From the sequence record PZ445443.1: a stretch of DNA of 64,000 nucleotides. One strand, given 5' to 3'. A program made the position numbers and the translations under genes. This DNA is from a phage. The notes below the pieces were generated by a model. That model was not told the origin of the DNA and ran no database searches. It saw only the letters and a program-made list of their open reading frames with translations. Positions 48,111-59,039 of this stretch are shown here, piece after piece (the first letter of the stretch is position 1; the number at the start of each line of letters is the position of its first letter).

Positions 48111-48302
48111 AAGAGGTACATAAATGAAAGGTAATATGATCCCCTGGAAAATGTAGCTATTAATGACGCTGAGGCTATCGCCCTGGTTGAAAAGGCTATG
48201 GCGGGAGCGTTGGAACATAAAGAAGAGTACGAAAAAATGATGGTTAACCTGGCAGGGGCGGCGGCTGGAGAATTCTGCCCAAAAAATAATTTTAACTAAT
48301 GG

Positions 48303-48331
48303 TTGACAGCTCGGACAGTTCTTGTTATTCT
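48303..48331 (+). promoter_or_regulatory. sigma70-like promoter (weak -10)
   Basis: TTGACA (48303-48308), 17-nt spacer, TATTCT. Confidence 0.35.
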
Positions 48332-48383
48332 TATCCTCGCAAGGTGAACAACACCACACTAATTAACAGAGAGGATAAAAATC

Positions 48384-48581
48384 ATGAACGCCTACGGAAT
48401 CAAAGTACGTCGCAGCACTCGCCAGGTGGTCACCGATCAAATGGTTTGCCGGGTGGATGTAACCATCAACAACGGGCAAGGCCTTTATAAATTTCGTCGC
48501 GGTCATAGCTATACCCTGCAACAGCTTAACCGTTGCTCCCTGACAAAAGGTCAGATCAACCACTGGTTTAATAAAAAATAA
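48384..48581 (+). CDS. early small protein (65 aa)
   Basis: ORF track; RBS GAGGA. Confidence 0.5.
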   Translation: MNAYGIKVRRSTRQVVTDQMVCRVDVTINNGQGLYKFRRGHSYTLQQLNRCSLTKGQINHWFNKK

Positions 48582-48584
48582 ATA

Positions 48585-48613
48585 TTGACATGTGGTCTGA
48601 CACAAAATATACT
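48585..48613 (+). promoter_or_regulatory. sigma70-type promoter
   Basis: TTGACA (48585-48590), 17-nt spacer, TATACT (48608-48613). Confidence 0.6.
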
Positions 48614-48645
48614 GAAATCACAAAAGACACTAAGAGGATAAAATC

Positions 48646-49044
48646 ATGAAAACCACAACCTTTAATTTTGATAATGCCGACTTCTCTTTTTCTGATGTTA
48701 AAAGCTGCCGCCGTGATCGCGGATTCTACAAGGCCTATAATCTGGTGGGCCTGGACGATGACAATAATTTGCACGAAGTAGCTGAGATCCGGTATTATGC
48801 CGCCGCCAGCGGTAACACTCATTACTGTGTATTTTGGATTCACGACAACAAGAACAATAAGTACGGTTATACTGGCGGCAAGGCGAGCGGTCACGGTTAT
48901 GATAAAGCCAACGCTGCACTTGAAAGCGCATTAAGTGCCATGGGAATCACTGCCGACGGCTGGATCTATGAAGAAGAGTTTTTGGCGGCACTTGCTAACC
49001 ACTTGGGCTATAAAAAGCACATTGTAACATGCGCCCACGAATAA
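48646..49044 (+). CDS. early protein (132 aa)
   Basis: ORF track; RBS AAGAGGA. Confidence 0.55.
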   Translation: MKTTTFNFDNADFSFSDVKSCRRDRGFYKAYNLVGLDDDNNLHEVAEIRYYAAASGNTHYCVFWIHDNKNNKYGYTGGKASGHGYDKANAALESALSAMGITADGWIYEEEFLAALANHLGYKKHIVTCAHE

Positions 49045-49058
49045 AAAAAAAAAAATTA

Positions 49059-49086
49059 TTGACACGCTGCAAAATTCAAGTAAACT
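49059..49086 (+). promoter_or_regulatory. sigma70-type promoter
   Basis: TTGACA (49059-49064), 16-nt spacer, TAAACT (49081-49086); preceded by A-tract. Confidence 0.55.
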
Positions 49087-49096
49087 AGGCACAAAA

Positions 49097-49114
49097 GGCG
49101 GGAAACATCCCGCC
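49097..49114 (+). promoter_or_regulatory. conserved 5' leader hairpin (GGCGGG-loop-CCCGCC)
   Basis: GGCGGGaaacatCCCGCC ~11 nt after the -10 and before the SD; related copies at 49770, 51619, 55721. Confidence 0.45.
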
Positions 49115-49131
49115 AACACAGAGGAAAAGCT

Positions 49132-49527
49132 ATGAATAAGAACGTACGCCGCATCATGAACGAACTGGCAAACGATGAAAAAATTATTGACATGCATTTG
49201 GTCAACATTTGCCGCCGTTGTGTAACATATAACAACCGCGCCGCAAAAGCGCGTGAGATGAACGCAAAAGGCACCTTAAAGCCCTTTCAGGTGGTTGTAA
49301 AATCTATAACTAATGCAGCAGGCCAGGCGCATGATCACAACAACGAGAGCACTAATATTGATCCGTCTTACGTAATGAAACGGATCCGGACTTGCAAGAA
49401 TAAAGAGCAGGTGTATAACGTCATAGATTGGCTTGATTCCATGGGCGACGTGGTTTATAATAGGTTTTCTGCAGCTATCGAGATCCAGCTTGACAGGTTG
49501 GACGGGAAAGTACTAAAAACTTATTAA
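49132..49527 (+). CDS. early protein (131 aa)
   Basis: ORF track; RBS AGAGGAAAAG. Confidence 0.55.
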   Translation: MNKNVRRIMNELANDEKIIDMHLVNICRRCVTYNNRAAKAREMNAKGTLKPFQVVVKSITNAAGQAHDHNNESTNIDPSYVMKRIRTCKNKEQVYNVIDWLDSMGDVVYNRFSAAIEIQLDRLDGKVLKTY

Positions 49528-49530
49528 GCT

Positions 49531-49575
49531 TATTTTTAGATGGCCTTGACTCCAGGGCCATCAATAAAGTAAACT
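49531..49575 (+). promoter_or_regulatory. repeated 45-bp hairpin/promoter element, copy 1
   Basis: TATTTTTAGATGGCCTTGACTCCAGGGCCATCAATAAAGTAAACT; inverted repeat GATGGCC/GGCCATC encloses TTGACT; TAAACT 18 nt downstream as candidate -10. Confidence 0.5.
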
Positions 49576-49608
49576 AACCACAGTTAAGCGGAAAAGGGGG
49601 GCTTGAAG

Positions 49609-49728
49609 ATGAGTACTACACGCCAACACACAAAGGTAACTATTATCGTTTGCATCATTGGTTACATCCTGGCGCAAATGTTGATGGGTAGCGCCAATGA
49701 TTTCGCAAAATTTTTCTTAAACTTTTAA
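49609..49728 (+). CDS. small hydrophobic protein (39 aa, below ORF-track cutoff)
   Basis: ATG 49609 with AAAAGGGGGG upstream; MSTTRQHTKVTIIVCIIGYILAQMLMGSANDFAKFFLNF; downstream of element copy 1. Confidence 0.4.
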   Translation: MSTTRQHTKVTIIVCIIGYILAQMLMGSANDFAKFFLNF

Positions 49729-49756
49729 TTGACAAGCTAACTTAAATCAGTATAAT
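49729..49756 (+). promoter_or_regulatory. sigma70 consensus promoter
   Basis: TTGACA (49729-49734), 16-nt spacer, TATAAT (49751-49756). Confidence 0.65.
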
Positions 49757-49809
49757 ACTAAGCACATAAACGGGAAAACTTCCCAGAACACACAAAAGGA
49801 GAAAACATT

Positions 49810-50160
49810 ATGAATACTTCCATCACTATGACCACCGAAGAAAAAGCCCTGCAGATCGCCGCTCTGAAAAAACAGATTGCAGAACTGGAAGACAAGATCG
49901 ACAATTTTGAAATCGACGAAGACAAATACGATGATAAATATGATGAATGGTTGGACGAGATCCACGGCGAAATTATGATCGGTTGTATCTCTTTCCTCCC
50001 TTCACGTATCCTTAGGGAGCTGGATCCTATCGCTTACCGTTGCGGCTTTAGCGATTATATTGATAGCCTAGATATTGAAGATGACGAAGAATACCAGGAA
50101 TTGCAGACAGAGCTTGAAGAAGCAAAAGAAGAGCTTGCAGAACTGGAAGAAAACGAGTAA
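49810..50160 (+). CDS. early acidic coiled-coil protein (116 aa)
   Basis: ORF track; RBS AAAGGAGAA; Glu/Asp-rich heptad-like sequence. Confidence 0.55.
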   Translation: MNTSITMTTEEKALQIAALKKQIAELEDKIDNFEIDEDKYDDKYDEWLDEIHGEIMIGCISFLPSRILRELDPIAYRCGFSDYIDSLDIEDDEEYQELQTELEEAKEELAELEENE

Positions 50161-50163
50161 ATT

Positions 50164-50208
50164 TATTTTTAGATGGCCTTGACTCCAGGGCCATCAATAA
50201 AGTAAACT
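50164..50208 (+). promoter_or_regulatory. repeated 45-bp hairpin/promoter element, copy 2
   Basis: Near-identical to copy 1; TTGACT 50179-50184, TAAACT 50203-50208; starts right after upstream stop codon. Confidence 0.5.
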
Positions 50209-50249
50209 TTACACTGTTAACACTGAACTAATACAGAGGAGTTAAAACC

Positions 50250-50495
50250 ATGGCAGCACTAATCACCAAATATTATGCCCCTACCAACACCAAAAGCGCC
50301 CGTATCATGGTAAAAGGCTTCGGACGTAAAAAGGTTTACACCTGGGATTATTCCCTAGACATGGAAGACAACTACACCAACGCAATGACCGATTTTATTA
50401 ATGAACTAAATAAGCAGATCTTGACAAGTTATAAAGTGACAGATATTGCTTATATAGGTGAAGGCGGGATCTGTTTTGTGGGCATTGTGAAATAG
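50250..50495 (+). CDS. early small protein (81 aa)
   Basis: ORF track; RBS AGAGGAG. Confidence 0.55.
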   Translation: MAALITKYYAPTNTKSARIMVKGFGRKKVYTWDYSLDMEDNYTNAMTDFINELNKQILTSYKVTDIAYIGEGGICFVGIVK

Positions 50496-50496
50496 T

Positions 50497-50540
50497 TATT
50501 TTTTCGGTGGTCCTGGCTGCAGGGCCATCTATAAAGATAA
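50497..50540 (+). promoter_or_regulatory. degenerate copy of the hairpin/promoter element
   Basis: TTTTCGGTGGTCCTGGCTGCAGGGCCATCTATAAAG: keeps the GGGCCATC arm and A/T-rich 3' part but lacks TTGACT. Confidence 0.3.
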
Positions 50541-50569
50541 TTTATTAACACCATGAAAGGAGAAAGTAC

Positions 50570-50923
50570 ATGATCAGCGGGGCTAGTTTTATTATTGGCG
50601 CTATTGCTACGGCTTTAATTGTAAACAAGATCCAGGATAAAAAGGAAAGAGGAAGTACCGCCCTTGCAGAATATCCATTTTGGACATTTAACGATAACGA
50701 AGATTATATTATAAAGTATAAAAATAAAGAGGGTGACCAAGTAACACCGCGACCGATCCCAGCTTACAAGATGCAGGAAACACTATACCGCCTGGAGGCG
50801 GGGGGCGCAAAAATTGTAGACTTTTGGGGATACGACCACACAGATCAGGAAGTTATAAAGCGCCGTATCCGGGCTATTCAGGCCAATATTGAAGTTAGCA
50901 AGGGGGGAATATATGAAAATTAA
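50570..50923 (+). CDS. early membrane-anchored protein (117 aa)
   Basis: ORF track; RBS AAAGGAGAAAG; N-terminal hydrophobic helix ISGASFIIGAIATALIV. Confidence 0.5.
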   Translation: MISGASFIIGAIATALIVNKIQDKKERGSTALAEYPFWTFNDNEDYIIKYKNKEGDQVTPRPIPAYKMQETLYRLEAGGAKIVDFWGYDHTDQEVIKRRIRAIQANIEVSKGGIYEN

Positions 50924-51110
50924 TTTCGAGAAAATTGTAAAGCGCCCTCATGATTCCGAAGAGCTGCCAGAACGCCGCCAGCGTAACAATAAACTGAATA
51001 AGCCAAAAAGGTTTGGGAAGATCTGGCGTAATCATTATGATCGTAAATTGCCCGGCCTACTTTTGGAGCGTGAACGACAGGCAGAACGATACCGCCATAA
51101 AGACAAATAA
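50913..51110 (+). CDS. early basic small protein (65 aa)
   Basis: ATG 50913 with AAGGGGGG upstream; Arg/Lys-rich. Confidence 0.45.
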   Translation: MKINFEKIVKRPHDSEELPERRQRNNKLNKPKRFGKIWRNHYDRKLPGLLLERERQAERYRHKDK

Positions 51111-51116
51111 CAACCA

Positions 51117-51146
51117 ACGCCCAGCCATTGTGCGGGGCTTTTTATT
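51117..51146 (+). terminator. putative terminator (short stem + T-tract)
   Basis: GCCC...GGGC short stem followed by TTTTTATTTC. Confidence 0.35.
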
Positions 51147-51268
51147 TCTATCCTACGAATAGCGCCCCTGGTTGGCCCTGTAAGCGCCAAAAAGGCCCCC
51201 ACCTATGCAATCGCCCCCTTTAACCTGAAAACATCGCCCAGGGCCGTTTCATGGCGTTAAAAATATCA

Positions 51269-51296
51269 TTGACATCGTCAACAGGTTAGCTATACT
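51269..51296 (+). promoter_or_regulatory. sigma70-type promoter
   Basis: TTGACA (51269-51274), 16-nt spacer, TATACT (51291-51296). Confidence 0.6.
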
Positions 51297-51328
51297 AACC
51301 ACATCAAAGAGAGAAAGGAGTAAACGCC

Positions 51329-51601
51329 ATGCGTAAATTAAAAAATTTTGATAAAGTTGATGTTATCCTGAATAATTTTTACTACTGCAACAACAAGGCT
51401 ATTTGGTGGCGTGATAGTTCCACCGATAAAGTCAGGGCGCGCTTTCTTCAGGGGCACTGGCAAGGCCGCCCGGTGATTAAAATCATGGGGCAATTGGTAG
51501 CGTTTAAAAATTGCCGCCGTGTTGATGACGTTGAGGAGATTTTAAACATTTTGCGCCACAATAATTTAAAAAAAATAGTGTTGACAAGTAAGCCTCAATA
51601 A
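51329..51601 (+). CDS. early protein (90 aa)
   Basis: ORF track; RBS AAAGGAG. Confidence 0.5.
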   Translation: MRKLKNFDKVDVILNNFYYCNNKAIWWRDSSTDKVRARFLQGHWQGRPVIKIMGQLVAFKNCRRVDDVEEILNILRHNNLKKIVLTSKPQ

Positions 51602-51609
51602 GTATACTT
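51581..51609 (+). promoter_or_regulatory. sigma70-type promoter (overlaps 3' end of upstream gene)
   Basis: TTGACA (51581-51586), 17-nt spacer, TATACT (51604-51609); followed by leader hairpin GGCGGGaaaactTCCCGCC (51619-51637). Confidence 0.6.
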
Positions 51610-51665
51610 AAACACACAGGCGGGAAAACTTCCCGCCACTAACAAAGAAAATAGGAGAAAATATC

Positions 51666-52289
51666 ATGACCACCGTTAACATTACCGCAGGTTACAATTT
51701 ATCTTTCGACGTGCTGACCGACGAACAAAAAGAAAAAGCCGTTGAAATGGTCCGCGAAAGAGAAGAACACAGCGGGGATAACTTTTTTGCAGAAAGTGTA
51801 ATTGAATACTATAAAGAATATGTTTTTCCAGAGTATGGCCTTGAAGATACCGAAGTACATTGGTCAGGCTTTTGGTGCCAGGGTGACGGCGCGTCAATCA
51901 GTGCTGAAAACGTGGATTTAGAAAAATTTTTGCGTAAAGTAAAGGCCCTGACCAAGTTCCGATCAATTCGTCACTTGTTCGGCACAATGCACGATGGCGA
52001 GTTATCAGCCAGTGTTGAACGCGACAAGTACAGCCATTACAGCCATGAAAACACTGTAAGCGGGTACATTGATACCACTTGGCTAGATCTGACCGCCAAA
52101 CAAGAAAACAAAGTTGAAGAGCTGGAAGAGCTGATCACCGAGACGGTACGGGAGCTATCCCGCAAGGTTTACGTAGACCTGGAGGAGGCCTATCTTGAAC
52201 AGTTTACTACCGAAAACCTGATCGGCCTTATTGAAGCCAATGATTGGCGGTTTGATGTGGATGAATATGGGGAGATGAGTTTTTCATAA
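51666..52289 (+). CDS. early protein (207 aa)
   Basis: ORF track; RBS AGGAGAA. Confidence 0.55.
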   Translation: MTTVNITAGYNLSFDVLTDEQKEKAVEMVREREEHSGDNFFAESVIEYYKEYVFPEYGLEDTEVHWSGFWCQGDGASISAENVDLEKFLRKVKALTKFRSIRHLFGTMHDGELSASVERDKYSHYSHENTVSGYIDTTWLDLTAKQENKVEELEELITETVRELSRKVYVDLEEAYLEQFTTENLIGLIEANDWRFDVDEYGEMSFS

Positions 52290-52297: not shown

Positions 52298-52325
52298 TTG
52301 CAATAATCTAAAAACCTGCTATATT
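52298..52325 (+). promoter_or_regulatory. sigma70-like promoter
   Basis: TTGCAA (52298-52303), 16-nt spacer, TATATT (52320-52325). Confidence 0.45.
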
Positions 52326-52378
52326 AAAACTCAAGGGGCGAGATGACTTGCCCCACACAAAACAAAGAGGATAACATC

Positions 52379-52759
52379 ATGAAAAACACCACCAAGGCCA
52401 TTGACACCGTTATGTTTAACCTGGTTACATTCCGTGAAGATATGAAAGATCTTCCACGTGAAACAGTGTGCGACCATATCGAAAACTATCGCAAACTTAT
52501 TAAAGAATTGCCATTGAAACGAGATCAGTACGCGGCTAACGCCATGCTTAACGCCATGATCAAAAAGATGATTCAGTGTGATTTAACTCTGGCCTATGAT
52601 TATGCAGGTGGTCGTTTTGCAGTATACAATCAGCCCGTGCCTGGTATGAGCACCACCGAAGAATTGCACGCGCTCAATCTAAAACAAGATGTGTGGGATA
52701 GTATGCCCCGCGTGGTGGTATGGGTAGAAAGCGGAAAGATTTACGGCGATAATTTTTAA
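52379..52759 (+). CDS. early protein (126 aa)
   Basis: ATG 52379 with AAGAGGA upstream (track start 52343 lacks RBS). Confidence 0.5.
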   Translation: MKNTTKAIDTVMFNLVTFREDMKDLPRETVCDHIENYRKLIKELPLKRDQYAANAMLNAMIKKMIQCDLTLAYDYAGGRFAVYNQPVPGMSTTEELHALNLKQDVWDSMPRVVVWVESGKIYGDNF

Positions 52760-52770
52760 TCAGGTAACAG

Positions 52771-52798
52771 GCGGCGGCATATTTGCCGCCTTATTGTT
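52771..52798 (+). terminator. rho-independent terminator
   Basis: GGCGGC-atattt-GCCGCC followed by TTATTGTT. Confidence 0.55.
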
Positions 52799-52826
52799 AA
52801 TCAGAACTGTAAAAGAGGTACATAGA

Positions 52827-53198
52827 ATGGAATTTATCATTTTGGCTATATTAGTTGCCTTGTTTAACGCCTGGATCGCTGGCAAGATGGGTAGATCCGC
52901 CTTTTTATGGTTTATTATATCTATCTTCCTGGGAGTGGTTGCAACTATTGTATTGGTTATCCTTGCAATTGTTGACAAGGGGAATAATAGAAAGGGTAAA
53001 GTATTTTCAGACCTGTACGACGCTCAAACGTTTGTCAACGCCTATTATAGTGATCTTCCAGTCTCCCTACGTTGCAGCCTTGCACAACAGGTTTTCGATG
53101 AAGCTAAAACCAGAGATCACGCCCATGAGATTTGTTTAACTGAGGCGGATCGCCTATTTGAGAGGAATAGAAAATATGTGGACCAGCCGTTTAAATAA
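52827..53198 (+). CDS. early membrane protein (123 aa, two predicted TM helices)
   Basis: ATG 52827 with AAGAGG upstream; MEFIILAILVALFNAWIAG...FLWFIISIFLGVVATIVLVILAIV. Confidence 0.5.
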   Translation: MEFIILAILVALFNAWIAGKMGRSAFLWFIISIFLGVVATIVLVILAIVDKGNNRKGKVFSDLYDAQTFVNAYYSDLPVSLRCSLAQQVFDEAKTRDHAHEICLTEADRLFERNRKYVDQPFK

Positions 53199-53397
53199 TG
53201 CCACGTTAATTAACCCCTTTAGTGAAGATTTGAAGCCAGCCGCCTGGCGTGATGGATTCAATAACGAAAGCTTTATTTTCAGGCCTGATCTTAAGGAATT
53301 TTATAACAATGGATCGAACAACGACAGAGATAATTTTTCTTGTAATGTGCGTGGTGATAATACTCCTGGGGGCCATTGCAAACCACGTCACTGCTAA
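53176..53397 (+). CDS. hypothetical small protein (73 aa); frame choice uncertain
   Basis: ATG 53176 with GAGAGGAA upstream; competes with overlapping ORF 53249..53434 in another frame. Confidence 0.3.
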   Translation: MWTSRLNNATLINPFSEDLKPAAWRDGFNNESFIFRPDLKEFYNNGSNNDRDNFSCNVRGDNTPGGHCKPRHC

Positions 53398-53417: not shown

Positions 53418-53537
53418 ATGACACCCAAGGATAAGCCCCGCACCGATAAGGCGCGCCGTGTTATGGTATGGCTTGAGATCATCGCCCTTGAAATATTGTT
53501 AGGCGTAGGGATGTATTTTATCGCTGTAAGTAACTGA
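53418..53537 (+). CDS. small hydrophobic protein (39 aa, below ORF-track cutoff)
   Basis: ATG 53418 with GGAGGGAAGGGGGAG upstream; MTPKDKPRTDKARRVMVWLEIIALEILLGVGMYFIAVSN; followed by terminator. Confidence 0.4.
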   Translation: MTPKDKPRTDKARRVMVWLEIIALEILLGVGMYFIAVSN

Positions 53538-53541: not shown

Positions 53542-53581
53542 GGCCCCCGATCCCTGGGGGCCTAACTTTTTAATTTTTTTT
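53542..53581 (+). terminator. rho-independent terminator
   Basis: GGCCCCC-gatccct-GGGGGCC followed by TAACTTTTTAATTTTTTTT. Confidence 0.6.
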
Positions 53582-53679
53582 CTCCCTGGGTGTTGCAATC
53601 CGATCCAGAATATGGATAATAACAATCAACGGGGAGACACTCCCCACCGCACAGACAAAGTTCCAAAAGGAGAAACAAA

Positions 53680-53880
53680 ATGAGCAATAATATCCGCGTT
53701 ATTAACTTCAAAAAAGAAGAAAAAATTGCTGTACTGGTTGATGGTCAAGAAATCTTCAAGGGCGATTATGAAGATCATCAAACGGCGATTAGTATCACTC
53801 GCGTGATTGGTTACCATAATTTCTACCCCCAAGGCGCTGAGGCAGCAGTTAAACGAATCAAAGAGATTGTAGGCCTGTAA
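53680..53880 (+). CDS. early small protein (66 aa)
   Basis: ORF track; RBS AAAAGGAGAAA. Confidence 0.55.
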   Translation: MSNNIRVINFKKEEKIAVLVDGQEIFKGDYEDHQTAISITRVIGYHNFYPQGAEAAVKRIKEIVGL

Positions 53881-53884: not shown

Positions 53885-53929
53885 TATTTTTAGATGGCCT
53901 TGACTCCAGGGCCATCAATAAAGTAAATT
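53885..53929 (+). promoter_or_regulatory. repeated 45-bp hairpin/promoter element, copy 3
   Basis: TATTTTTAGATGGCCTTGACTCCAGGGCCATCAATAAAGTAAATT; TTGACT 53900-53905, TAAATT 53924-53929; starts right after upstream stop. Confidence 0.5.
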
Positions 53930-53964
53930 TAAACCCTGTTAAAATACCACGCAGTTAACAAGGA

Positions 53965-54273
53965 GTGATAGACATGTTTATCCAGGCTAATAATCTTTAT
54001 TTCTTTGATGGTCAGATCGTAGATGGTGTGGAAGTGGAGATCACCGGGTGCCCTGGCGGTCAGGCTATGACTTTCCGGAATAATGCCTTTGATGATTCTC
54101 ATATCGTTATGAAAATGGAAGTTACGAAGCTGGACGACAAGAAAGCACTCATTGACTATTCTGTGAAAGATCATCCAGACTACCACATGATCTATGGTGA
54201 TTTGTGCATTGTTGACCGTGACAAGGTAGGCGGCATTGTGATCGCTATTGTGAACGATGTTTTCTCAAACTAA
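53965..54273 (+). CDS. early protein (102 aa)
   Basis: ORF track; RBS AAGGAG. Confidence 0.55.
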   Translation: MIDMFIQANNLYFFDGQIVDGVEVEITGCPGGQAMTFRNNAFDDSHIVMKMEVTKLDDKKALIDYSVKDHPDYHMIYGDLCIVDRDKVGGIVIAIVNDVFSN

Positions 54274-54290: not shown

Positions 54291-54641
54291 ATGAAAGTCA
54301 AACTATATTACCTTAATGAGCTTAACCCCCTTGCCCAGGTCCGCGCCCTGGCTAATACCTTGATTTGTGAGAAATCTGTATATTGTGTTGAGCTTAACGC
54401 CATGCGTGAACGTCTCAAAGGTGGTTACTTTGACATCCATGCTGCAATCAACGGCCTGAATATGGAATTTATACGCCTACGTAACAGCCGCCGGAATCTG
54501 GCAAGAATGGAACAAGATCCGGCCCACCTTCGTAAACTGGTTATTGAAAATCATCTGATGTTCAATGCCGAGGGTGATTATTACCATTTTAACCGCAAAC
54601 GTTGGTACCGTGGCGGCAATACAGACAAGGATGCAAAATAA
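54291..54641 (+). CDS. early protein (116 aa)
   Basis: ORF track; weak RBS. Confidence 0.5.
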   Translation: MKVKLYYLNELNPLAQVRALANTLICEKSVYCVELNAMRERLKGGYFDIHAAINGLNMEFIRLRNSRRNLARMEQDPAHLRKLVIENHLMFNAEGDYYHFNRKRWYRGGNTDKDAK

Positions 54642-54677
54642 GGCCCCTAGCAGGGCCTGCAGCGATATAATCACATA

Positions 54678-54711
54678 AAGGCCATGCAACCGCATGGCCT
54701 TTATTATTTTG
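54678..54711 (+). terminator. rho-independent terminator
   Basis: GGCCATGC-aacc-GCATGGCC followed by TTTATTATTTT; a second hairpin AGGCCC...GGGCCT lies just upstream. Confidence 0.6.
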
Positions 54712-54758
54712 GCGTTACAACGGCATACGGAGCGCTTAAAAATTTTTTAAATAAGTAC

Positions 54759-54787
54759 TTGCATCATGTCCGACAATATGGATAATA
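54759..54787 (+). promoter_or_regulatory. sigma70-like promoter
   Basis: TTGCAT, 17-nt spacer, ATAATA. Confidence 0.4.
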
Positions 54788-54845
54788 AGAGTTGTCGAAG
54801 GGGCTATGCCTCCAATCATTAACCGGATAGATAGGAGTTAAAATC

Positions 54846-55130
54846 ATGGCTATTGTTACCGCTGGTGATGTAGTAGAAATGGAAGCAAAATACTTAAAAA
54901 CTGGTATGCATATCCTACGCAACGATCTTGAACTGGTCCTGACAATGGTTGACTATAACCCAGGGCAAGATTATCCAAGTGTTGACTACTTTTTTGAGTA
55001 TGTCGATGAAGAGCTAAAAGAGGATGAGGCCTACTGCGGAGAATTCTGCAACTACTTTTGCCCTGACGAGGTTGTAAAAGTTATCTACCAACCTGGCGTA
55101 CCTTTCCCGCTACACGCTATCAATAAATAA
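54846..55130 (+). CDS. early protein (94 aa)
   Basis: ORF track; RBS TAGGAG. Confidence 0.55.
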   Translation: MAIVTAGDVVEMEAKYLKTGMHILRNDLELVLTMVDYNPGQDYPSVDYFFEYVDEELKEDEAYCGEFCNYFCPDEVVKVIYQPGVPFPLHAINK

Positions 55131-55185
55131 ACCTGGCGGGGCCGAAAAGGCCCCCAATTATGAAAATAAAGAGAGGCAAATCATC

Positions 55186-55419
55186 ATGATGGAACAAATT
55201 AAACGCGCCGAGGCTATTAATGGCAACGTGATCTATTTTGTCAGCAAAAACGAAAAAGGCGTACCCTATGCGGCGGTAATAGTACAGCCTGACGGCGATT
55301 ATTGGTGCACTGTGTACGGCGCTTATTCTTTTGGGCGTCCAGTGCATGATAAAATTTTGAAAGTAGCGAACCCTACCGGGAAAAATATCACAGCAGAAAA
55401 ATTTTTTGAAAATAGTTGA
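55186..55419 (+). CDS. early small protein (77 aa)
   Basis: ORF track; RBS AGAGAGG. Confidence 0.5.
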   Translation: MMEQIKRAEAINGNVIYFVSKNEKGVPYAAVIVQPDGDYWCTVYGAYSFGRPVHDKILKVANPTGKNITAEKFFENS

Positions 55420-55443
55420 CACGACCATATAAGACTGTAGTAT
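55416..55443 (+). promoter_or_regulatory. sigma70-like promoter
   Basis: TTGACA (55416-55421), 16-nt spacer, TAGTAT. Confidence 0.5.
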
Positions 55444-55496
55444 ATAAATCAAAGGGGGGCAACAAGCCCCACCAACCACAAAGAGGATAAAAAATC

Positions 55497-55676
55497 ATGG
55501 CTATTATTGCAAAGACTGAGATCGTAGGCTTAGATTCTATTCTTCTCGCATATGAGGAAGCTATAGAAATGTATGTGGTTTCCTATGGTGAATATATCCG
55601 TGAATATAAATCTATTGATCTAGCTTTTGAATGTTATATTCGCCAGGTCAATAAAGCATATGATGATTATCGTTAA
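55497..55676 (+). CDS. early small protein (59 aa, below ORF-track cutoff)
   Basis: ATG 55497 with AAGAGGA upstream; promoter and GC hairpin in leader. Confidence 0.45.
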   Translation: MAIIAKTEIVGLDSILLAYEEAIEMYVVSYGEYIREYKSIDLAFECYIRQVNKAYDDYR

Positions 55677-55682
55677 AATAGT

Positions 55683-55710
55683 TTGACAACAGTCAACAAT
55701 CTGGTAAAGT
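55683..55710 (+). promoter_or_regulatory. sigma70-like promoter
   Basis: TTGACA (55683-55688), 16-nt spacer, TAAAGT; followed by leader hairpin GCGGGAatactTCCCGC (55721-55740). Confidence 0.45.
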
Positions 55711-55758
55711 GTACTACATAGCGCGGGAATACTTCCCGCCATTAATGAGGATAATTTA

Positions 55759-55896
55759 ATGAAAACTTTCAACGCAACAGTCTCGACAATTGGTTATATT
55801 ATTACAGTACAAGCCGTGGATCTGGTAGCAGCAGCAAACAAGATTAAAAAGATGATTCCGCCAGGCAGTGAATTTTCCGTTTGGAAAGTAAAATAA
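55759..55896 (+). CDS. early small protein (45 aa, below ORF-track cutoff)
   Basis: ATG 55759 with GAGGA upstream; MKTFNATVSTIGYIITVQAVDLVAAANKIKKMIPPGSEFSVWKVK. Confidence 0.4.
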   Translation: MKTFNATVSTIGYIITVQAVDLVAAANKIKKMIPPGSEFSVWKVK

Positions 55897-55899
55897 ATC

Positions 55900-55927
55900 T
55901 TGACAATAGTTTATTACTTGATAGACT
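55900..55927 (+). promoter_or_regulatory. sigma70-like promoter
   Basis: TTGACA (55900-55905), 16-nt spacer, TAGACT. Confidence 0.5.
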
Positions 55928-56094
55928 GTATTTCGTAGGGCGGGGCAATAAGGCAACGCCCATTAATGATGGTAGAATCATGTTAGATAAAATTTTCACG
56001 GTTGTAGTAGTTGGCCTGGCATTATAGGTTGGAGTGGTTGCAACTATGGCTAACATGATCCTATCTTCCCATGGTATCGGTTAAGGTGAATCAA

Positions 56095-56310
56095 ATGATC
56101 ACGAATAAGACAGGTAAAACGGAATTCTTGCGCGGCTTGCAGATCGGCAAGCCAGAGATCTGGTATTGCACTAAAACACCACGTGACGAAATGAAAGACT
56201 TCACCGCCACGCTGCAACGGGTAAAGATATCCATCACGCAGAAAAAGGCCTTGATAGTGGTGGAAGGTGAGATCCCTCAAACCGTTGTTATAGTTGAGCG
56301 TACAGCATAG
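56095..56310 (+). CDS. early small protein (71 aa)
   Basis: ATG 56095 with AAGGTG upstream (track start 56071 lacks RBS). Confidence 0.45.
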   Translation: MITNKTGKTEFLRGLQIGKPEIWYCTKTPRDEMKDFTATLQRVKISITQKKALIVVEGEIPQTVVIVERTA

Positions 56311-56401
56311 TTTAATTTATAGCGATACCTGAAAATTAACCAATAAATCATAAACAGGCGGTTACCGCCGCCTTAAACGTAGCAGAAAGAGGCTAGACAC
56401 A

Positions 56402-56686
56402 ATGAAAAAGATGATCGCAGTAGTTGCCCTGGTTGTTGGACTTAATGCACCTGTAATGGCTAAAGAGCTGGCAAAAGAGGTTAATCTAACGGATATCCAT
56501 GCCGTCAATCAAATCGGGGTTACTTATCGCTTATGCCTTGCCGCTAAAACTTTTAATGACGGTACAACAGAGTACTACGGATTCGAAGGTATCCGGTGCG
56601 GTGAGCTTGCTCGCGACCTTAAGGAAGATCCAGACCTGGAAGATCTGCCCATCACCGTAAACGGTAAAGCTTACGTAAACCGTTAA
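56402..56686 (+). CDS. early secreted/periplasmic protein (94 aa) with cleavable signal peptide
   Basis: MKKMIAVVALVVGLNAPVMA-KE signal peptide without lipobox Cys; RBS AAGAGG. Confidence 0.6.
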   Translation: MKKMIAVVALVVGLNAPVMAKELAKEVNLTDIHAVNQIGVTYRLCLAAKTFNDGTTEYYGFEGIRCGELARDLKEDPDLEDLPITVNGKAYVNR

Positions 56687-56688
56687 CC

Positions 56689-56823
56689 ATGAGAAAGATA
56701 ATCATCACCTTGGGGATTGTGGCGGGATCGCTGGCGCTCTTTCCCCTTATGGTTAGGTATGTGCTGATCAGTATTGTCCTGGTAGTCAGTGATCTATTGG
56801 AAACGGTTGGCACCTTGTTTTAA
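56689..56823 (+). CDS. small hydrophobic protein (44 aa, below ORF-track cutoff)
   Basis: ATG 56689 2 nt after upstream stop (coupling); MRKIIITLGIVAGSLALFPLMVRYVLISIVLVVSDLLETVGTLF. Confidence 0.35.
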   Translation: MRKIIITLGIVAGSLALFPLMVRYVLISIVLVVSDLLETVGTLF

Positions 56824-56835
56824 AGAGCGGTAAAA

Positions 56836-57027
56836 ATGAATATCGAACAAGTTAGAAAAGTATTAGCGGTACTGCGTTATCATAATCATAGAAAGGTCAT
56901 AGACGATCCTGATTATGTTGATTCAAGCCTGGAAGGGGATACACTACAAGCTATAAGTAACATGCAAGAATTGCTAAAGCGCATGACAGAGAAAAACCGA
57001 CCGGACTACATAGGCGAAAAAATATAA
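56836..57027 (+). CDS. early small protein (63 aa)
   Basis: ORF track. Confidence 0.5.
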   Translation: MNIEQVRKVLAVLRYHNHRKVIDDPDYVDSSLEGDTLQAISNMQELLKRMTEKNRPDYIGEKI

Positions 57028-57043
57028 TATTTATAAACTACAA

Positions 57044-57080
57044 AACAGGGCTTGCAATGGTCCTGTTTTTTGTTATACTT
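57044..57080 (+). terminator. putative terminator
   Basis: ACAGG...CCTGT stem followed by TTTTTTGTT. Confidence 0.45.
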
Positions 57081-57155
57081 GTTTCACGGCAGGCACCTGG
57101 CGACGGGTGGAGACAATCACCGGGCCTGCCTGTCATATAAGAACTATAAAAACCG

Positions 57156-57184
57156 TTGACATCTGCCATGGGGTGGGGTAACAT
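57156..57184 (+). promoter_or_regulatory. sigma70-like promoter
   Basis: TTGACA (57156-57161), 17-nt spacer, TAACAT. Confidence 0.5.
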
Positions 57185-57238
57185 TTATCTTGAAGGGGCA
57201 AAAGTGCCCACACAACAACCAGGAGAGAGGAAAACACT

Positions 57239-57511
57239 ATGTCAAGCTGGATTAATCAAGAAGTCGAATCACGTTTTAATGCTATTTGGGATCTCATCGA
57301 AAAAGAGGACGGAACATCAAGCCCCTACCTCAACAATTTGGAATTCCATTTTGTGGAAGCGATGAACGCAGAACATGATCACGAAGGTGGCGCGGATGAG
57401 TTCGCTAAAGGTTATGGCTTTAACAATGCCAACGAAATGATCGAGGCGGTAGTACTCCAGGCTGAGGAAGATTATCAATTAAAAACGCTTGAATTCTGCC
57501 GCCATAAGTAA
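57239..57511 (+). CDS. early protein (90 aa)
   Basis: ORF track; RBS GGAGAGAGG. Confidence 0.55.
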   Translation: MSSWINQEVESRFNAIWDLIEKEDGTSSPYLNNLEFHFVEAMNAEHDHEGGADEFAKGYGFNNANEMIEAVVLQAEEDYQLKTLEFCRHK

Positions 57512-57571
57512 TAAGATAATGACACGGGCCAAAAGGCCCACTAATCAGAACCGCACAAAGAGGTAAACATC

Positions 57572-57835
57572 ATGAAACGTCTTGACCAGCTCAAACTAGT
57601 TCAATATATGGCTTATCGTGTTCTTGAAGTCCAGAAAGGTAGCAAAAAAGAGGTTTGCGAGAAAGCTTATAAGATCTTTACCCGCAAAAAAGATGACTGG
57701 ATGCTACGCCAGACCAAAAAAGCCGATATACTGGGGTACCTGGAAGAAGAGATCCGCCTTGAAGAACAAGAAGAGATCCGCCGTAGTGAGGCAGATTATC
57801 AGGCAGCTTGGGAAAACTGGATGAGCAACAAATAA
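57572..57835 (+). CDS. early basic protein (87 aa)
   Basis: ORF track; RBS AAGAGG. Confidence 0.5.
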   Translation: MKRLDQLKLVQYMAYRVLEVQKGSKKEVCEKAYKIFTRKKDDWMLRQTKKADILGYLEEEIRLEEQEEIRRSEADYQAAWENWMSNK

Positions 57836-57902
57836 TACAACAAGTTACATGGTCAGGGGGGCAATAAAGCCCCTTGATCGCATGAAAATTATGCTATCTC
57901 TG

Positions 57903-57931
57903 GTTGACAGGGATCGGCAGTTTTGCTATAT
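57903..57931 (+). promoter_or_regulatory. sigma70-type promoter
   Basis: TTGACA (57903-57908), 17-nt spacer, TATATT (57926-57931). Confidence 0.55.
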
Positions 57932-57981
57932 TCTTTTTTAAAGGGAAGTTGTAAGAAAATTAACTAAGAGGTAAAAACACC

Positions 57982-58401
57982 ATGAATATTAAATCTGATA
58001 ATCCGGCATATAGCTTTGATAACGCTTTTTGTCACGGTCCGGCGGCGAAAGGTTTTGAAATTGATGGTAAACTAGTTATTGTCAATGTTGACGGGGAAGA
58101 GGTTGCAGTGTATCCGGTGGCAGACGTTAAAAGCCGTTTACAATGCCGCATCGATGTTACCGCATATCAGCTTGATCCGGTCCGCGTAGTCTCCCTGGTC
58201 CTGGAGGAAGAAATCAAAGCAATGCACCACAGCAATAAGTTTATCGGTGACGCGCAAGATAATATGAAGGTATGCCGCTATAAAGTTAATGAAGTGCTTA
58301 AAGAATATGGATTTAAGGATCTGATGATCAAACGTGATGAAAAATTTCGTTATCGTAACGACCTGGCAAATCGAATCTATGAAATATACGAATCATTATA
58401 A
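57982..58401 (+). CDS. early protein (139 aa)
   Basis: ORF track; RBS AAGAGG. Confidence 0.55.
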   Translation: MNIKSDNPAYSFDNAFCHGPAAKGFEIDGKLVIVNVDGEEVAVYPVADVKSRLQCRIDVTAYQLDPVRVVSLVLEEEIKAMHHSNKFIGDAQDNMKVCRYKVNEVLKEYGFKDLMIKRDEKFRYRNDLANRIYEIYESL

Positions 58402-58420
58402 TTTTTTAACTGAATTATCA

Positions 58421-58445
58421 AGGGGCTTAGGCCCCTTTCTTTTTG
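58421..58445 (+). terminator. rho-independent terminator closing the early cluster
   Basis: AGGGGC-ttag-GCCCCT followed by TTCTTTTT. Confidence 0.65.
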
Positions 58446-59039
58446 TCTGCTCTTCCCCTACCATAAACGGCCATACATGGCAAGTGGAATAATTGACGAG
58501 CCATCAATCCCACACACTGTACAAATATACATGTAAAATAACTATTGCATAACTTTTCATTGTGTGGTAGCAGGGCCATTTTTACACGTTTTTCCTTCCA
58601 AAATTGCACGTAATGCAGCATTTGCACAAAATTTAACCTGATGCATATCTTCAATAGCTTGTCAACAACTAAAAATCTTTATAAGTCATACACTTACATA
58701 ACTACAAAAGCGTTTTCTACGTGAAAAATCGAGTATAACTATAGCCGCCAGACCTCAGAATTTACGTACGCTCGACATTCTATAGCCTGCTAAGCATTTA
58801 TTCCAACCATAGAATAACGGAATAGTCAATACCTGCATAAAATAATTATTCGTGTAAACTGCATAACATAAATCGGCCCAGGTGTCAACATTTTTCGTAA
58901 ACAGTCCGAAATTATCACTATGAGTTATCATAAACAGGGAAATCTTTAGTCGTCTAATGTTTACTGTACATTACTATACTGACTGGAATCATTAGATGAC
59001 TAAGAGAAAGATAAGAAATAATTAACAATACAATTATTT

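What the first reader, a model, noticed from the sequence alone, without database searches (positions are those of the whole stretch)
48300..58450. Dense early-type cluster of ~27 small genes, most with their own host-type promoter
Between two repeat-rich non-coding regions lie about 27 short ORFs (39-207 aa). Nearly every one has a strong SD, and most have a near-consensus TTGACA-N16/17-TATAAT-like promoter; many are followed by GC-hairpin/T-tract terminators. That is the signature of a phage early or host-takeover region read by host RNAP. None of the proteins shows a recognisable enzymatic motif; several are membrane, secreted, acidic coiled-coil or highly basic. Anti-defence, host-shutoff and superinfection-exclusion functions usually sit in such clusters, so this is the most likely home of undescribed biology in the window.
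Basis: partly seen in the sequence, partly recalled or inferred. Interest (0 to 1): 0.65.

Follow-up and report, generated by a model that had tools for sequence, protein, structure and literature searches.

The report
Early small-gene cluster of rV5-like phage
This is the already-sequenced block of about 28 small genes of unknown function in an rV5-like E. coli phage; it is real, conserved and carries many strong host-type promoters, which makes it an ordinary phage early or accessory region.

Summary
The window is a Vequintavirus (rV5-like coliphage). Region 48300-58450 is 92-95% identical to well over 100 GenBank phages, where the same genes are annotated as hypothetical.

- There are 28 same-strand ORFs of 39-207 aa, under purifying selection (pN/pS 0.10).
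- About 26 have an SD-like sequence.
- There are 14 near-consensus sigma-70 promoters on the + strand, against 1.95±1.39 in shuffles and 0 on the - strand.
- The -35 and -10 boxes and the hairpin stems are conserved better than the surrounding DNA.

Two corrections:
- Only 16-17 of the 28 genes have their own promoter.
- Only 6 hairpins are hairpin-plus-T-tract terminators. About 10 others start 9-14 nt after a -10 box, so they are 5'-UTR stem-loops.

No protein has a known function. All 28 fall in PHROGs of unknown function. The only Pfam hit is g8, which matches T7 gp1.1. A confident model of g10 has no PDB match.

Gene content varies by whole cassettes between relatives, and one junction carries a chimeric hairpin. 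Single genes are shared with phi92 and phAPEC8. This resembles the T4 PeSL hyperplastic regions.

Early timing and host-takeover roles are plausible but untested. The region is already known and of modest interest.

The parts
48303..48383 (+). Regulatory cassette of g1: TTGACA-N17-TATTCT (10/12), leader, SD GAGG
   Evidence: A/T-rich upstream
48384..48581 (+). g1, 65 aa, basic (pI 10.7)
   Evidence: PHROG 7119, unknown function. pN/pS 0.35. The longer versions annotated in relatives start inside the -35 box.
48585..48645 (+). Cassette of g2: TTGACA-N17-TATACT (11/12), SD
48646..49044 (+). g2, 132 aa, restricted to the genus
   Evidence: PHROG 7028. Only 4 homologue clusters. No PDB hit. pN/pS 0.06.
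49059..49131 (+). Cassette of g3: TTGACA-N16-TAAACT, 10 nt, hairpin GGCGGGAAACATCCCGCC (49097-49114), CA-rich leader, SD
49132..49527 (+). g3, 131 aa, basic
   Evidence: PHROG 13245; pN/pS 0.15
49539..49602 (+). Repeated cassette, copy 1 (before g4): hairpin GATGGCCTTGACTCCAGGGCCATC with the -35-like TTGACT in its loop, then TAAACT
   Evidence: 3 copies against 0 expected
49603..49728 (+). g4, 41 aa (39 aa from the ATG), membrane peptide
   Evidence: PHROG 16391; maximum 19-aa Kyte-Doolittle hydropathy 2.08; absent in ECP32
49729..49809 (+). Cassette of g5: TTGACA-N16-TATAAT (12/12), 14 nt, hairpin CGGGAAAACTTCCCAG (49771-49785), CA leader, SD
49810..50160 (+). g5, 116 aa, very acidic (net charge -27), coiled-coil ends
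   Evidence: PHROG 9294; only sub-threshold coiled-coil Pfam hits; absent in ECP32
50172..50249 (+). Repeated cassette, copy 2 (before g6)
50250..50495 (+). g6, 81 aa
   Evidence: PHROG 3199; pN/pS 0.11
50506..50569 (+). Degenerate copy of the repeated hairpin cassette (before g7); no promoter of 9/12 or better
50570..50923 (+). g7, 117 aa, N-terminal membrane anchor
   Evidence: PHROG 12734
50913..51110 (+). g8, 65 aa, very basic; homologue of T7 gene 1.1 protein; overlaps g7 by 11 nt
   Evidence: Pfam PF08200 Phage_1_1, E 2.6e-11, 44.2 bits against a cutoff of 21
51119..51147 (+). Intrinsic terminator after g8 (GCCCAGC..GCGGGGC followed by TTTTTATTT)
   Evidence: read; annotated as a terminator in EdH4
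51269..51328 (+). Cassette of g9: TTGACA-N16-TATACT (11/12), SD
51329..51601 (+). g9, 90 aa, basic
   Evidence: PHROG 11241
51581..51665 (+). Cassette of g10: TTGACA-N16-TATACT (11/12), 10 nt, hairpin GGCGGGAAAACTTCCCGCC (51619-51637), leader, SD
   Evidence: almost invariant in 9 relatives
51666..52289 (+). g10, 207 aa, acidic. Member of a very large uncharacterised family of phage proteins with the invariant motifs SGFxxQGDGA, YxHE, R and YxxLE.
   Evidence: Alignment. 7,737 representative clusters. AF2 model pLDDT 87. No PDB or BFVD functional match. No Pfam hit.
52298..52378 (+). Cassette of g11: TTGCAA-N16-TATATT (9/12), 9 nt, hairpin (52335-52354), CA leader, SD
52379..52759 (+). g11, 126 aa (= rV5 gp179; 71% identical to phi92 gp227)
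52769..52800 (+). Intrinsic terminator after g11
52827..53198 (+). g12, 123 aa, two N-terminal transmembrane helices
   Evidence: PHROG 13090; maximum 19-aa Kyte-Doolittle hydropathy 3.14
53176..53397 (+). g13, 73 aa; overlaps g12
   Evidence: PHROG 12060; pN/pS 0.48
53418..53537 (+). g14, 39 aa, membrane peptide
   Evidence: PHROG 13629
53542..53572 (+). Intrinsic terminator after g14
53593..53679 (+). Cassette of g15: TTGCAA-N16-GATAAT (9/12), 10 nt, hairpin GGGGAGACACTCCCC (53631-53645), leader, SD
53680..53880 (+). g15, 66 aa
   Evidence: PHROG 12347; pN/pS 0.04
53893..53973 (+). Repeated cassette, copy 3 (before g16)
53974..54273 (+). g16, 99 aa, acidic
   Evidence: PHROG 7366
54291..54641 (+). 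g17, 116 aa, basic
   Evidence: PHROG 8549
54675..54712 (+). Intrinsic terminator after g17 (13-bp stem followed by TATTTTGG)
54759..54845 (+). Cassette of g18: A/T-rich upstream stretch, TTGCAT-N16-GATAAT (8/12), 13 nt, hairpin (54800-54812), SD
54846..55130 (+). g18, 94 aa, acidic
   Evidence: PHROG 12610
55138..55154 (+). Hairpin GGGGCCGAAAAGGCCCC in the g18-g19 spacer, with neither a promoter nor a T-tract
55186..55419 (+). g19, 77 aa (= rV5 gp170; 90% nucleotide identity to phi92 gp247)
55416..55496 (+). Cassette of g20: TTGACA-N16-TAGTAT, 10-12 nt, hairpin GGGGGGCAACAAGCCCC, CA leader, SD
55497..55676 (+). g20, 59 aa
   Evidence: PHROG 9374; absent in NHEP1 and ECP32
55683..55758 (+). 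Cassette of g21: TTGACA-N16-TAAAGT, 11-12 nt, hairpin GCGGGAATACTTCCCGC. An indel breakpoint against nom, JLBYU08 and WalterGehring falls at 55720-55726.
55759..55896 (+). g21, 45 aa; variable cassette, present only in EdH4 and PMBT16 among 9 relatives
55900..55979 (+). Promoter TTGACA-N16-TAGACT, 11 nt, imperfect hairpin (55939-55961)
55980..56084 (+). 34-codon membrane-peptide ORF with an in-frame TAG at codon 16 (TCG in PMBT16 and EdH4)
56095..56310 (+). g22, 71 aa (85% nucleotide identity to phAPEC8)
56356..56373 (+). Hairpin in the g22-g23 spacer, with neither a promoter nor a T-tract
56402..56686 (+). g23, 94 aa, signal-peptide-like N-terminus (predicted secreted or periplasmic)
56689..56823 (+). 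g24, 44 aa, membrane peptide; absent in JLBYU08
56836..57027 (+). g25, 63 aa
   Evidence: PHROG 9599
57042..57077 (+). Intrinsic terminator after g25. It is also the site of a 356-nt gene insertion in JLBYU08.
57088..57134 (-). Inverted copy of a ~50-nt element also present twice in the upstream non-coding region (47796, 47930)
57156..57238 (+). Cassette of g26: TTGACA-N17-TAACAT, 10-11 nt, hairpin GGGCAAAAGTGCCC, CA leader, SD
57239..57511 (+). g26, 90 aa, acidic
   Evidence: PHROG 7287
57526..57539 (+). Hairpin GGGCCAAAAGGCCC in the g26-g27 spacer
57572..57835 (+). g27, 87 aa. The 'DNA translocase FtsK' label used in some records is not supported.
57856..57873 (+). Hairpin GGGGGGCAATAAAGCCCC; left boundary of the g28 cassette
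57904..57981 (+). Promoter of g28: TTGACA-N17-TATATT (11/12, with TG extension), SD
57982..58401 (+). g28, 139 aa; absent in EdH4 and PMBT16; 86% nucleotide identity to phAPEC8_0017
   Evidence: AF2 model pLDDT only 71
58420..58446 (+). Intrinsic terminator after g28; right boundary of the g28 cassette and end of the cluster

Best explanation
This is the accessory, presumed early gene block of a Vequintavirus. It corresponds to about rV5 genes 164-190 and forms the tail of the long + strand transcription unit that also carries rIIA/rIIB, helicase, primase, DNA polymerase and SSB.

Proposed mechanism: after DNA entry, unmodified host sigma-70 RNA polymerase starts at 16-17 closely spaced strong promoters. 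Each promoter has an A/T-rich UP-like stretch followed by TTGACA-N16/17-TAnAnT. About 10 of the resulting mRNAs begin within a few nucleotides of a short G+C stem-loop, which is followed by a CA-rich leader and a Shine-Dalgarno site. I infer that this 5'-terminal hairpin protects the short transcripts from 5'-end-dependent decay. Six hairpin-plus-T-tract terminators divide the block into mono- to tri-cistronic units.

The products are small proteins: membrane or secreted, very acidic, or very basic. None belongs to a family of known function. I infer that they act by binding host components (envelope, nucleic-acid machinery) early in infection.

The conserved regulatory sequences also serve as recombination points, so single gene cassettes are gained, lost and exchanged between related phages.

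What is shown: the genes are real, the promoters and hairpin stems are conserved, cassettes are polymorphic, and one junction carries a chimeric hairpin.

What is inferred: early timing, mRNA stabilisation and host-directed function.
For: Identity: 92-95% nucleotide identity to more than 140 Vequintavirus records.

Genes are real: pN/pS is 0.10, and every ORF hits a PHROG.

Promoters:
- 14 on the + strand, against 1.95±1.39 in shuffles and 0 on the - strand.
- Upstream AT content is 79%, against 60% for promoter-like sites elsewhere in the window (p = 3e-5).
- A 16-nt spacer occurs in 10/17 cluster promoters against 1/20 elsewhere.
- Mismatch rates among 9 relatives: -35 box 1.4%, -10 box 4.2%, hairpin stems 3.8%; against 8.8-8.9% for neutral intergenic DNA, 18.5% for hairpin loops and 13% for third codon positions.

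Hairpins: under a strict definition, a hairpin within 6-18 nt of the -10 box occurs at 5/14 cluster promoters, 0/24 promoter-like sites elsewhere and 2.5% of random positions (binomial p = 1.5e-5). The gap from the -10 box is 9-14 nt. Variation between relatives falls in the loops.

Cassette turnover:
- g4, g5, g19-g24 and g28 are each missing in some relatives.
- The g28 cassette is bounded by two similar hairpins, and EdH4 and PMBT16 carry one chimeric hairpin in its place.
- Single genes are shared at 75-92% nucleotide identity with phi92 and phAPEC8, which belong to another subfamily.

Context: the replication module lies upstream on the same strand.

Literature: rV5 lacks its own RNA polymerase and has predicted sigma-70 promoters (PMC3606486). 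In Certrevirus the sigma-70-like promoters concentrate in the block of short hypothetical genes, called the 'likely early gene region' (PMC7344957).
Against: - There are no transcript data for any Vequintavirus, so early timing is by analogy only.
- Kropinski et al. note sigma-70-like promoters all over the rV5 genome, so the promoter type alone does not prove an early class.
- No protein matches a known takeover, anti-defence or exclusion family.
- Vequintavirinae are unusually sensitive to restriction-modification systems (PMC8594841).
- The hairpin stems are conserved but show almost no compensatory changes, so an RNA-level role is not proven.
- Other annotators call the same hairpins terminators.
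- Cassette breakpoints at gene borders are also what selection for intact ORFs would leave behind.
Confidence: 0.7

Rival explanations
1. The GC hairpins are transcription attenuators or terminators, as annotated in EdH4, Murica and phAPEC8, and are not 5' mRNA stabilisers. Each one damps read-through from upstream promoters so that every cassette is expressed mainly from its own promoter. This is the role proposed for the stem-loops of T4-type PeSLs.
For: Other groups' terminator predictors flagged them. PeSL stem-loops terminated transcription in reporter assays (PMC2839356). Promoter-less spacers (g19, g23, g27) carry the same kind of hairpin.
Against: About 13 of them have no T-tract and are followed by CA-rich sequence. 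Ten lie downstream of the -10 box of the very promoter they would have to spare, at a fixed 9-14 nt, so they would also attenuate their own transcript.
Confidence: 0.25
2. The block is mainly a hyperplastic nursery of dispensable orphan genes (ORFans), kept by cassette shuffling and only loosely tied to infection timing. Most of the genes have host-strain-specific or no measurable function, and there is no coordinated host-takeover programme.
For: 10 of 28 genes are polymorphic among only 9 relatives. g2 and g28 are restricted to the genus. One peptide gene carries a nonsense codon in this phage. pN/pS is higher for g1, g13, g17 and g24.
Against: 18 genes are present in all 9 relatives and most are under strong purifying selection, with pN/pS of 0.01-0.15. 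The g10 family is very widespread in phages. The regulatory signals are conserved.
Confidence: 0.3
3. The cluster is expressed at middle or late times or constitutively. The sigma-70-like sites would then be used throughout infection, because rV5-like phages may not reprogramme the host RNA polymerase.
For: Kropinski et al. found sigma-70-like promoters spread over the rV5 genome and no T4-type late transcription factors (PMC3606486). Promoter-like sites are also common at 20-47 kb in this window.
Against: The cluster promoters form a distinct, stronger class, with an UP-like A/T tract, a 16-nt spacer and a following hairpin. rV5 encodes an Srd-like anti-sigma factor, which suggests a switch away from sigma-70 (PMC3606486; annotated). 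The late-type motif is not enriched here.
Confidence: 0.15

Closest known systems
The same locus in phage rV5 and other Vequintavirus genomes (rV5 genes ~164-190; Kropinski et al. 2013, PMC3606486)
   Same: 92-95% nucleotide identity, with the same gene order and hypothetical proteins. Sigma-70-type promoters and rho-independent terminators were already predicted genome-wide for rV5.
   Different: This window has its own cassette complement: it has g21 and g28, lacks the extra gene seen in JLBYU08, and carries a TAG in the 34-aa peptide ORF. The published descriptions do not separate 5'-UTR hairpins from terminators and do not describe cassette exchange.
PeSL (promoter-early stem-loop) cassettes in the hyperplastic regions of T4-type phages (Arbiol et al. 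2010, PMC2839356; Comeau et al. 2014, PMC4122927)
   Same: An A/T-rich stretch, a consensus sigma-70 promoter, a G+C stem-loop, then SD and ATG in front of small ORFan genes. Indels of whole ORF cassettes occur between close relatives, with a chimeric element left at the junction. In four cassettes the stem-loop overlaps the -35 box, as in PeSLs.
   Different: The phage lineage is different (Vequintavirinae, not T4-like). In most cassettes the stem-loop lies 9-14 nt downstream of the -10 box rather than between or over the hexamers, which points to a 5'-UTR role. Mini-circle formation was not tested.
Putative early region of Certrevirus phages (CB7, CR3; Buttimer et al. 2020, PMC7344957)
   Same: Same subfamily. 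A sigma-70-like promoter with an UP element is concentrated in a block of short hypothetical genes, which the authors call the likely early region.
   Different: The consensus differs: AAAA(N3)TGTTGAC(N19)TATAAT there, against TTGACA-N16/17-TAnAnT here. No hairpin module was reported.
Classical early or pre-early host-takeover regions (T7 class I/II, T5 pre-early, T4 early)
   Same: Clusters of small, mostly non-essential genes read by host RNA polymerase from strong promoters. g8 is a homologue of T7 gene 1.1 protein.
   Different: None of the characterised takeover proteins (Ocr, Gp2, A1, Alc and others) has a detectable homologue here. The timing is unknown. The cluster is transcribed towards the adjacent non-coding region, not inward from a known leading end.

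Membership tests
Phage early / hyperplastic accessory gene region read by host RNA polymerase | Dense array of small same-strand genes that are real coding sequences | tested here: met
   28 ORFs in 10.1 kb; pN/pS 0.10
Phage early / hyperplastic accessory gene region read by host RNA polymerase | Excess of sigma-70 consensus promoters in the coding direction | tested here: met
   14 against 1.95±1.39 in shuffles, 0 on the opposite strand; hexamers conserved
Phage early / hyperplastic accessory gene region read by host RNA polymerase | Transcription in the first minutes of infection | not testable with these tools
   No Vequintavirus transcriptome in the library
Phage early / hyperplastic accessory gene region read by host RNA polymerase | Gene content varies between close relatives | tested here: met
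   10 of 28 genes absent in at least one of 9 relatives
PeSL mobile regulatory cassettes (T4-type phages) | Composite motif: A/T-rich stretch + sigma-70 promoter + G+C stem-loop + SD/ATG | tested here: met
PeSL mobile regulatory cassettes (T4-type phages) | Stem-loop placed between the -35 and -10 boxes, or over the -10 box | tested here: not met
   True only for the 3-4 copies of the GATGGCCTTGACTCCAGGGCCATC cassette. In about 10 cassettes the hairpin starts 9-14 nt after the -10 box.
PeSL mobile regulatory cassettes (T4-type phages) | Indels between relatives bounded by the motifs, leaving a chimeric motif | tested here: met
   g28 cassette: two flanking hairpins in the window, one chimeric hairpin in EdH4 and PMBT16. 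The g21 breakpoint lies inside the promoter-hairpin cassette.
PeSL mobile regulatory cassettes (T4-type phages) | Excised mini-circles and promoter/terminator activity in reporters | not testable with these tools
   Requires inverse PCR and lacZ fusions
Intrinsic (rho-independent) terminators | G+C hairpin immediately followed by a T-run | tested here: inconclusive
   Met for 6 sites (51119, 52769, 53542, 54675, 57042, 58420). Not met for about 13 other GC hairpins.
T7 gene 1.1 protein family (Pfam PF08200), for g8 | Score above the Pfam gathering threshold | tested here: met
   44.2 bits against 21; E 2.6e-11
YeeU/CbeA-like antitoxin (GenBank label on g10 in JLBYU08) | Sequence or fold similarity to YeeU/CbeA | tested here: not met
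FtsK-type DNA translocase (GenBank label on g27 in nom, S127 and others) | FtsK/SpoIIIE ATPase domain | tested here: not met
   87 aa, with no Pfam or NCBIfam hit
Known anti-phage-defence or defence proteins | Match to PADLOC, Pfam or NCBIfam models | tested here: not met
   Only chance-level hits. A dedicated anti-defence library was not available.

The most novel reading that the evidence does not exclude
The cluster promoters form a distinct mobile regulatory module: an UP-like A/T tract, TTGACA-N16-TAnAnT, then a G+C hairpin starting at about +3..+7 of the transcript, a CA-rich leader and an SD. This would be a Vequintavirus counterpart of T4 PeSLs in which the stem-loop has moved into the 5' UTR. 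The module would both stabilise early mRNAs and act as the homology patch through which single-gene cassettes move between Vequintavirinae and Stephanstirmvirinae.

Within the cluster, g10 represents a very large phage protein family. It has at least 7,700 clusters at 50% identity, an invariant QGDG...YxHE motif, no Pfam model and no solved fold. It could be an undescribed enzyme or host-factor binder.
Probability: 0.35. Interest if true: 0.45.

Novelty: already known. Interest (0 to 1): 0.27.

Why it matters
rV5-like phages are among the most often isolated coliphages and are candidates for therapy, yet about a fifth of their genes, including this whole block, have no known function.

This work gives a clean gene and signal map: the true start codons, 16-17 promoters, 6 terminators, and the 5'-UTR hairpins told apart from terminators. 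It also identifies which genes are core and which are swappable cassettes. That gives a defined target list for transcript mapping and for single-gene toxicity or anti-defence screens.

It does not reveal a new kind of system. The most reusable points are the PeSL-like cassette logic outside the T4 group and the very large uncharacterised g10 family.

Tried and rejected
- Pfam, NCBIfam, PADLOC and PHROGs on all 28 proteins gave nothing functional apart from g8 = T7 gp1.1.
- PDB sequence searches for g2, g5, g10 (as a profile), g11 and g28 gave nothing.
- The one informative g10 fusion partner is a Fic domain in a 1479-aa protein. A single case is too thin to infer function.
- The genomic context of two distant g10 homologues is again arrays of small ORFs, which says nothing about function.
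- The g28 AF2 model was too poor to search (pLDDT 71). g2 and g28 have too few diverse homologues for a useful alignment.
- Rfam found no family anywhere in the window, and there are no tRNAs.
- The rV5 'late' motif TGGTAAAATA was uninformative.
- Hairpin covariation is too sparse to prove an RNA structure: the stems are simply conserved.
- The ~50-nt repeated element at 47.8, 47.9 and 57.1 kb has no consistent fold across its copies.
- I rejected the GenBank labels YeeU-like antitoxin, FtsK translocase, acetyltransferase, phosphonoacetaldehyde hydrolase and holin for lack of any support.
- Literature searches found no Vequintavirus transcriptome and no anti-defence gene from this block.

Full report
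IDENTITY. The 10.15-kb region matches 255 phage records. Of these, 145 are at least 90% identical, and nearly all are Vequintavirus (rV5-like) coliphages such as A51.2, nom, FFH2, PMBT16, EdH4 and rV5 variants. In every record the genes are annotated 'hypothetical protein', apart from a few unsupported labels. Cross-references in the phi92 annotation equate g11 with rV5 gp179 and g19 with rV5 gp170. The block is therefore about rV5 genes 164-190, the tail of the transcription unit '10-1-238-164' defined by Kropinski et al. (PMC3606486). Upstream on the same strand lie a MoxR-type ATPase, rIIA/rIIB, helicase, methyltransferases, primase, DNA polymerase, SSB and a macro-domain protein. Downstream is a 2.5-kb non-coding stretch facing convergent genes.

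OBSERVATION: GENES. I find 28 + strand ORFs of 39-207 aa.
- Summed over nine relatives, synonymous divergence is 0.203 and non-synonymous divergence is 0.021, a ratio of 0.10. Only g1, g13, g17 and g24 are above 0.3, and g21 has too few differences to judge.
- Twenty-four ORFs have at least a 4-nt Shine-Dalgarno core. g4 and g8 have G-rich equivalents. g24 and g25 follow the previous stop codon by 2 and 12 nt.

OBSERVATION: PROMOTERS. The tool's scan at 9/12 or better gave 51 sites against 31.8±5.5 in shuffles. My stricter count at 10/12 or better gives 14 on the + strand, against 1.95±1.39 in 200 dinucleotide shuffles (maximum 7), and none on the - strand. Sixteen genes have a site of 9/12 or better in their upstream spacer, and g18 has one at 8/12. 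'Most with their own promoter' therefore means 16-17 of 28, and the remaining genes form short operons.

The sites behave as functional elements. Across nine relatives the -35 hexamers show 1.4% mismatches and the -10 hexamers 4.2%. This compares with 8.9% in the promoter spacers, 8.8% in other intergenic DNA and 13% at third codon positions.

They also form a class of their own:
- The 22 nt upstream of the -35 box are 79% A+T, against 60% for promoter-like sites elsewhere in the window (p = 3e-5).
- Ten of 17 have a 16-nt spacer, against 1 of 20 elsewhere.

OBSERVATION: HAIRPINS. Only six + strand hairpins are followed by a T-run. They lie after g8, g11, g14, g17, g25 and g28. The others are different.
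- About ten start 9-14 nt (usually 10) after a -10 box and are followed by a CA-rich leader, an SD and an ATG. The start codon lies 17-34 nt downstream.
- Under a strict definition such a hairpin follows 5 of 14 cluster promoters, 0 of 24 promoter-like sites elsewhere and 2.5% of random positions (binomial p = 1.5e-5).
- With a transcription start about 7 nt after the -10 box (established knowledge), these stems would sit within a few nucleotides of the mRNA 5' end.
- That is the arrangement known to protect E. coli mRNAs from 5'-end-dependent decay. This point rests on my recollection of the Belasco laboratory's work on 5' stem-loops and was not checked here.
- The stems are conserved (3.8% mismatches) while the loops vary (18.5%). 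There is almost no compensatory change, so the RNA-level role is an inference.
- The '- strand terminators' are these hairpins read backwards.
- A separate 37-45-nt cassette, GATGGCCTTGACTCCAGGGCCATCAATAAAGTAAAYT, occurs three times against 0 expected, before g4, g6 and g16, with a degenerate copy before g7. A -35-like TTGACT sits in the hairpin loop.

PROTEINS. All 28 match PHROGs of unknown function. NCBIfam and PADLOC give nothing.

The only Pfam match above threshold is g8, which matches Phage_1_1, the T7 gene 1.1 protein. That protein is itself of unknown function.

g10 is the largest protein.
- It has 48 homologue clusters in the word-indexed search. Copies of about 60% identity lie on ~356-kb contigs.
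- A profile search finds 7,737 representative clusters.
- The family has the invariant motifs SGFxxQGDGA, YxHE, R and YxxLE.
- The 'YeeU-like antitoxin' label is therefore unsupported.
- One 1479-aa relative carries an N-terminal Fic domain.
- Two distant homologues also lie in arrays of small phage ORFs.

g2 and g28 are restricted to the genus. The g28 model was too weak to use.

VARIATION. Among nine Vequintavirus relatives, g4, g5, g19, g20, g21, g22, g23, g24 and g28 are each missing somewhere. g21 is present in only two of them. The breakpoints fall in regulatory spacers.
- The g28 cassette (57876-58420) is flanked by two similar hairpins. EdH4 and PMBT16 have one chimeric hairpin in its place.
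- The g21 replacement starts inside the promoter-hairpin cassette at 55720-55726.
- JLBYU08 has an extra gene inserted at the terminator after g25.
- In phi92 and phAPEC8, which belong to a different subfamily (Stephanstirmvirinae), isolated genes are 75-92% identical at the DNA level: g11, g19, g22, g23-g24 and g28. The matches end at the ORF borders.

This is the behaviour described for PeSL cassettes in the hyperplastic regions of T4-type phages (PMC2839356 and PMC4122927). In those phages the stem-loop usually lies between or over the promoter hexamers, and it terminated transcription in reporter assays.

INTERPRETATION. The best-supported reading is an accessory and probably early gene block, driven by host RNA polymerase from many strong promoters and evolving by cassette exchange.

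Early timing, mRNA stabilisation by the 5' hairpins and host-directed functions are inferences. No transcriptome exists in the searched literature. The reported high sensitivity of Vequintavirinae to restriction-modification systems (PMC8594841) argues against an efficient anti-restriction protein among the acidic products.

The architecture was already noted for rV5, with 33 promoters and 20 terminators predicted genome-wide. It was also noted for Certrevirus, where sigma-70-like promoters are concentrated in the short-hypothetical-gene 'likely early' region.

VERDICT. The feature is real, conserved and correctly located, but it is an already-sequenced and already-described kind of region. 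Its value lies in a target list, not in a new system. The additions are the distinct promoter-hairpin module, the cassette turnover with a chimeric junction, and the size of the g10 family.

Noticed in passing
window 55980-56084: A 34-codon membrane-peptide ORF carries an in-frame TAG at codon 16 in this phage (TCG to TAG). It is intact in PMBT16 and EdH4, where it reads MLDKIFTVVVVGLALSVGVVATMANMILSSHGIG. nom and JLBYU08 have a different N-terminal half fused to the same C-terminal half.
   Followed up: partly
window 47796-47850, 47930-47985 (+ strand) and 57088-57134 (- strand): A ~50-nt element, GGCAGGCCCGGTGATTGTCTCC..CCCGTC.CC.GGTGCCTGCCGT, occurs twice in the upstream non-coding region and once inverted inside the g25-g26 spacer. 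Only the 57.1-kb copy folds clearly better than shuffles (z = -3).
   Followed up: partly
window 47994, 48060, 48074, 48247, 55131, 59278: The 13-mer ACCTGGCGGGGCC (up to 2 mismatches) occurs 6 times against 0.6 expected. All copies are on the + strand. Most lie in the two non-coding regions, and one lies in the g18-g19 spacer.
   Followed up: no
window 47160-48300 and 58450-60900: Two long non-coding stretches flank the cluster. The first has three ~65-nt direct repeats (47460-47645). The second has several inverted repeats around 59050-59250. Several GenBank records (EdH4, ECP2303, isim, bov25_3) begin inside the second stretch, and in phi92 the homologous gene block abuts the right terminal repeat. 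This region may therefore hold a genome end or an origin.
   Followed up: partly
window 20000-47000, + strand: Promoter-like sites in the replication-gene part of the same transcription unit all have a 17-nt spacer, no A/T-rich upstream tract and no following hairpin. They are a different class from those in the cluster.
   Followed up: partly
window 51666-52289 (g10) and P0085: The g10 family is very large: 7,737 clusters at 50% identity with E <= 1e-3. It has no Pfam model and no solved fold. One 1479-aa member has an N-terminal Fic domain.
   Followed up: partly
GenBank records MG065656-MG065666 ('Campylobacter phage' C3, C5, C9, A12a): Twenty-three records named Campylobacter phage carry rV5-like or phi92-like coliphage sequence about 92% identical to this window. 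The host assignment looks doubtful.
   Followed up: no
window 48300-48383 (g1 start): Relatives annotate g1 as 85-94 aa starting at ATGGTTGACA, which is inside the -35 box. In this window that extension is out of frame, so the true start is MNAYGIK at 48384.
   Followed up: yes
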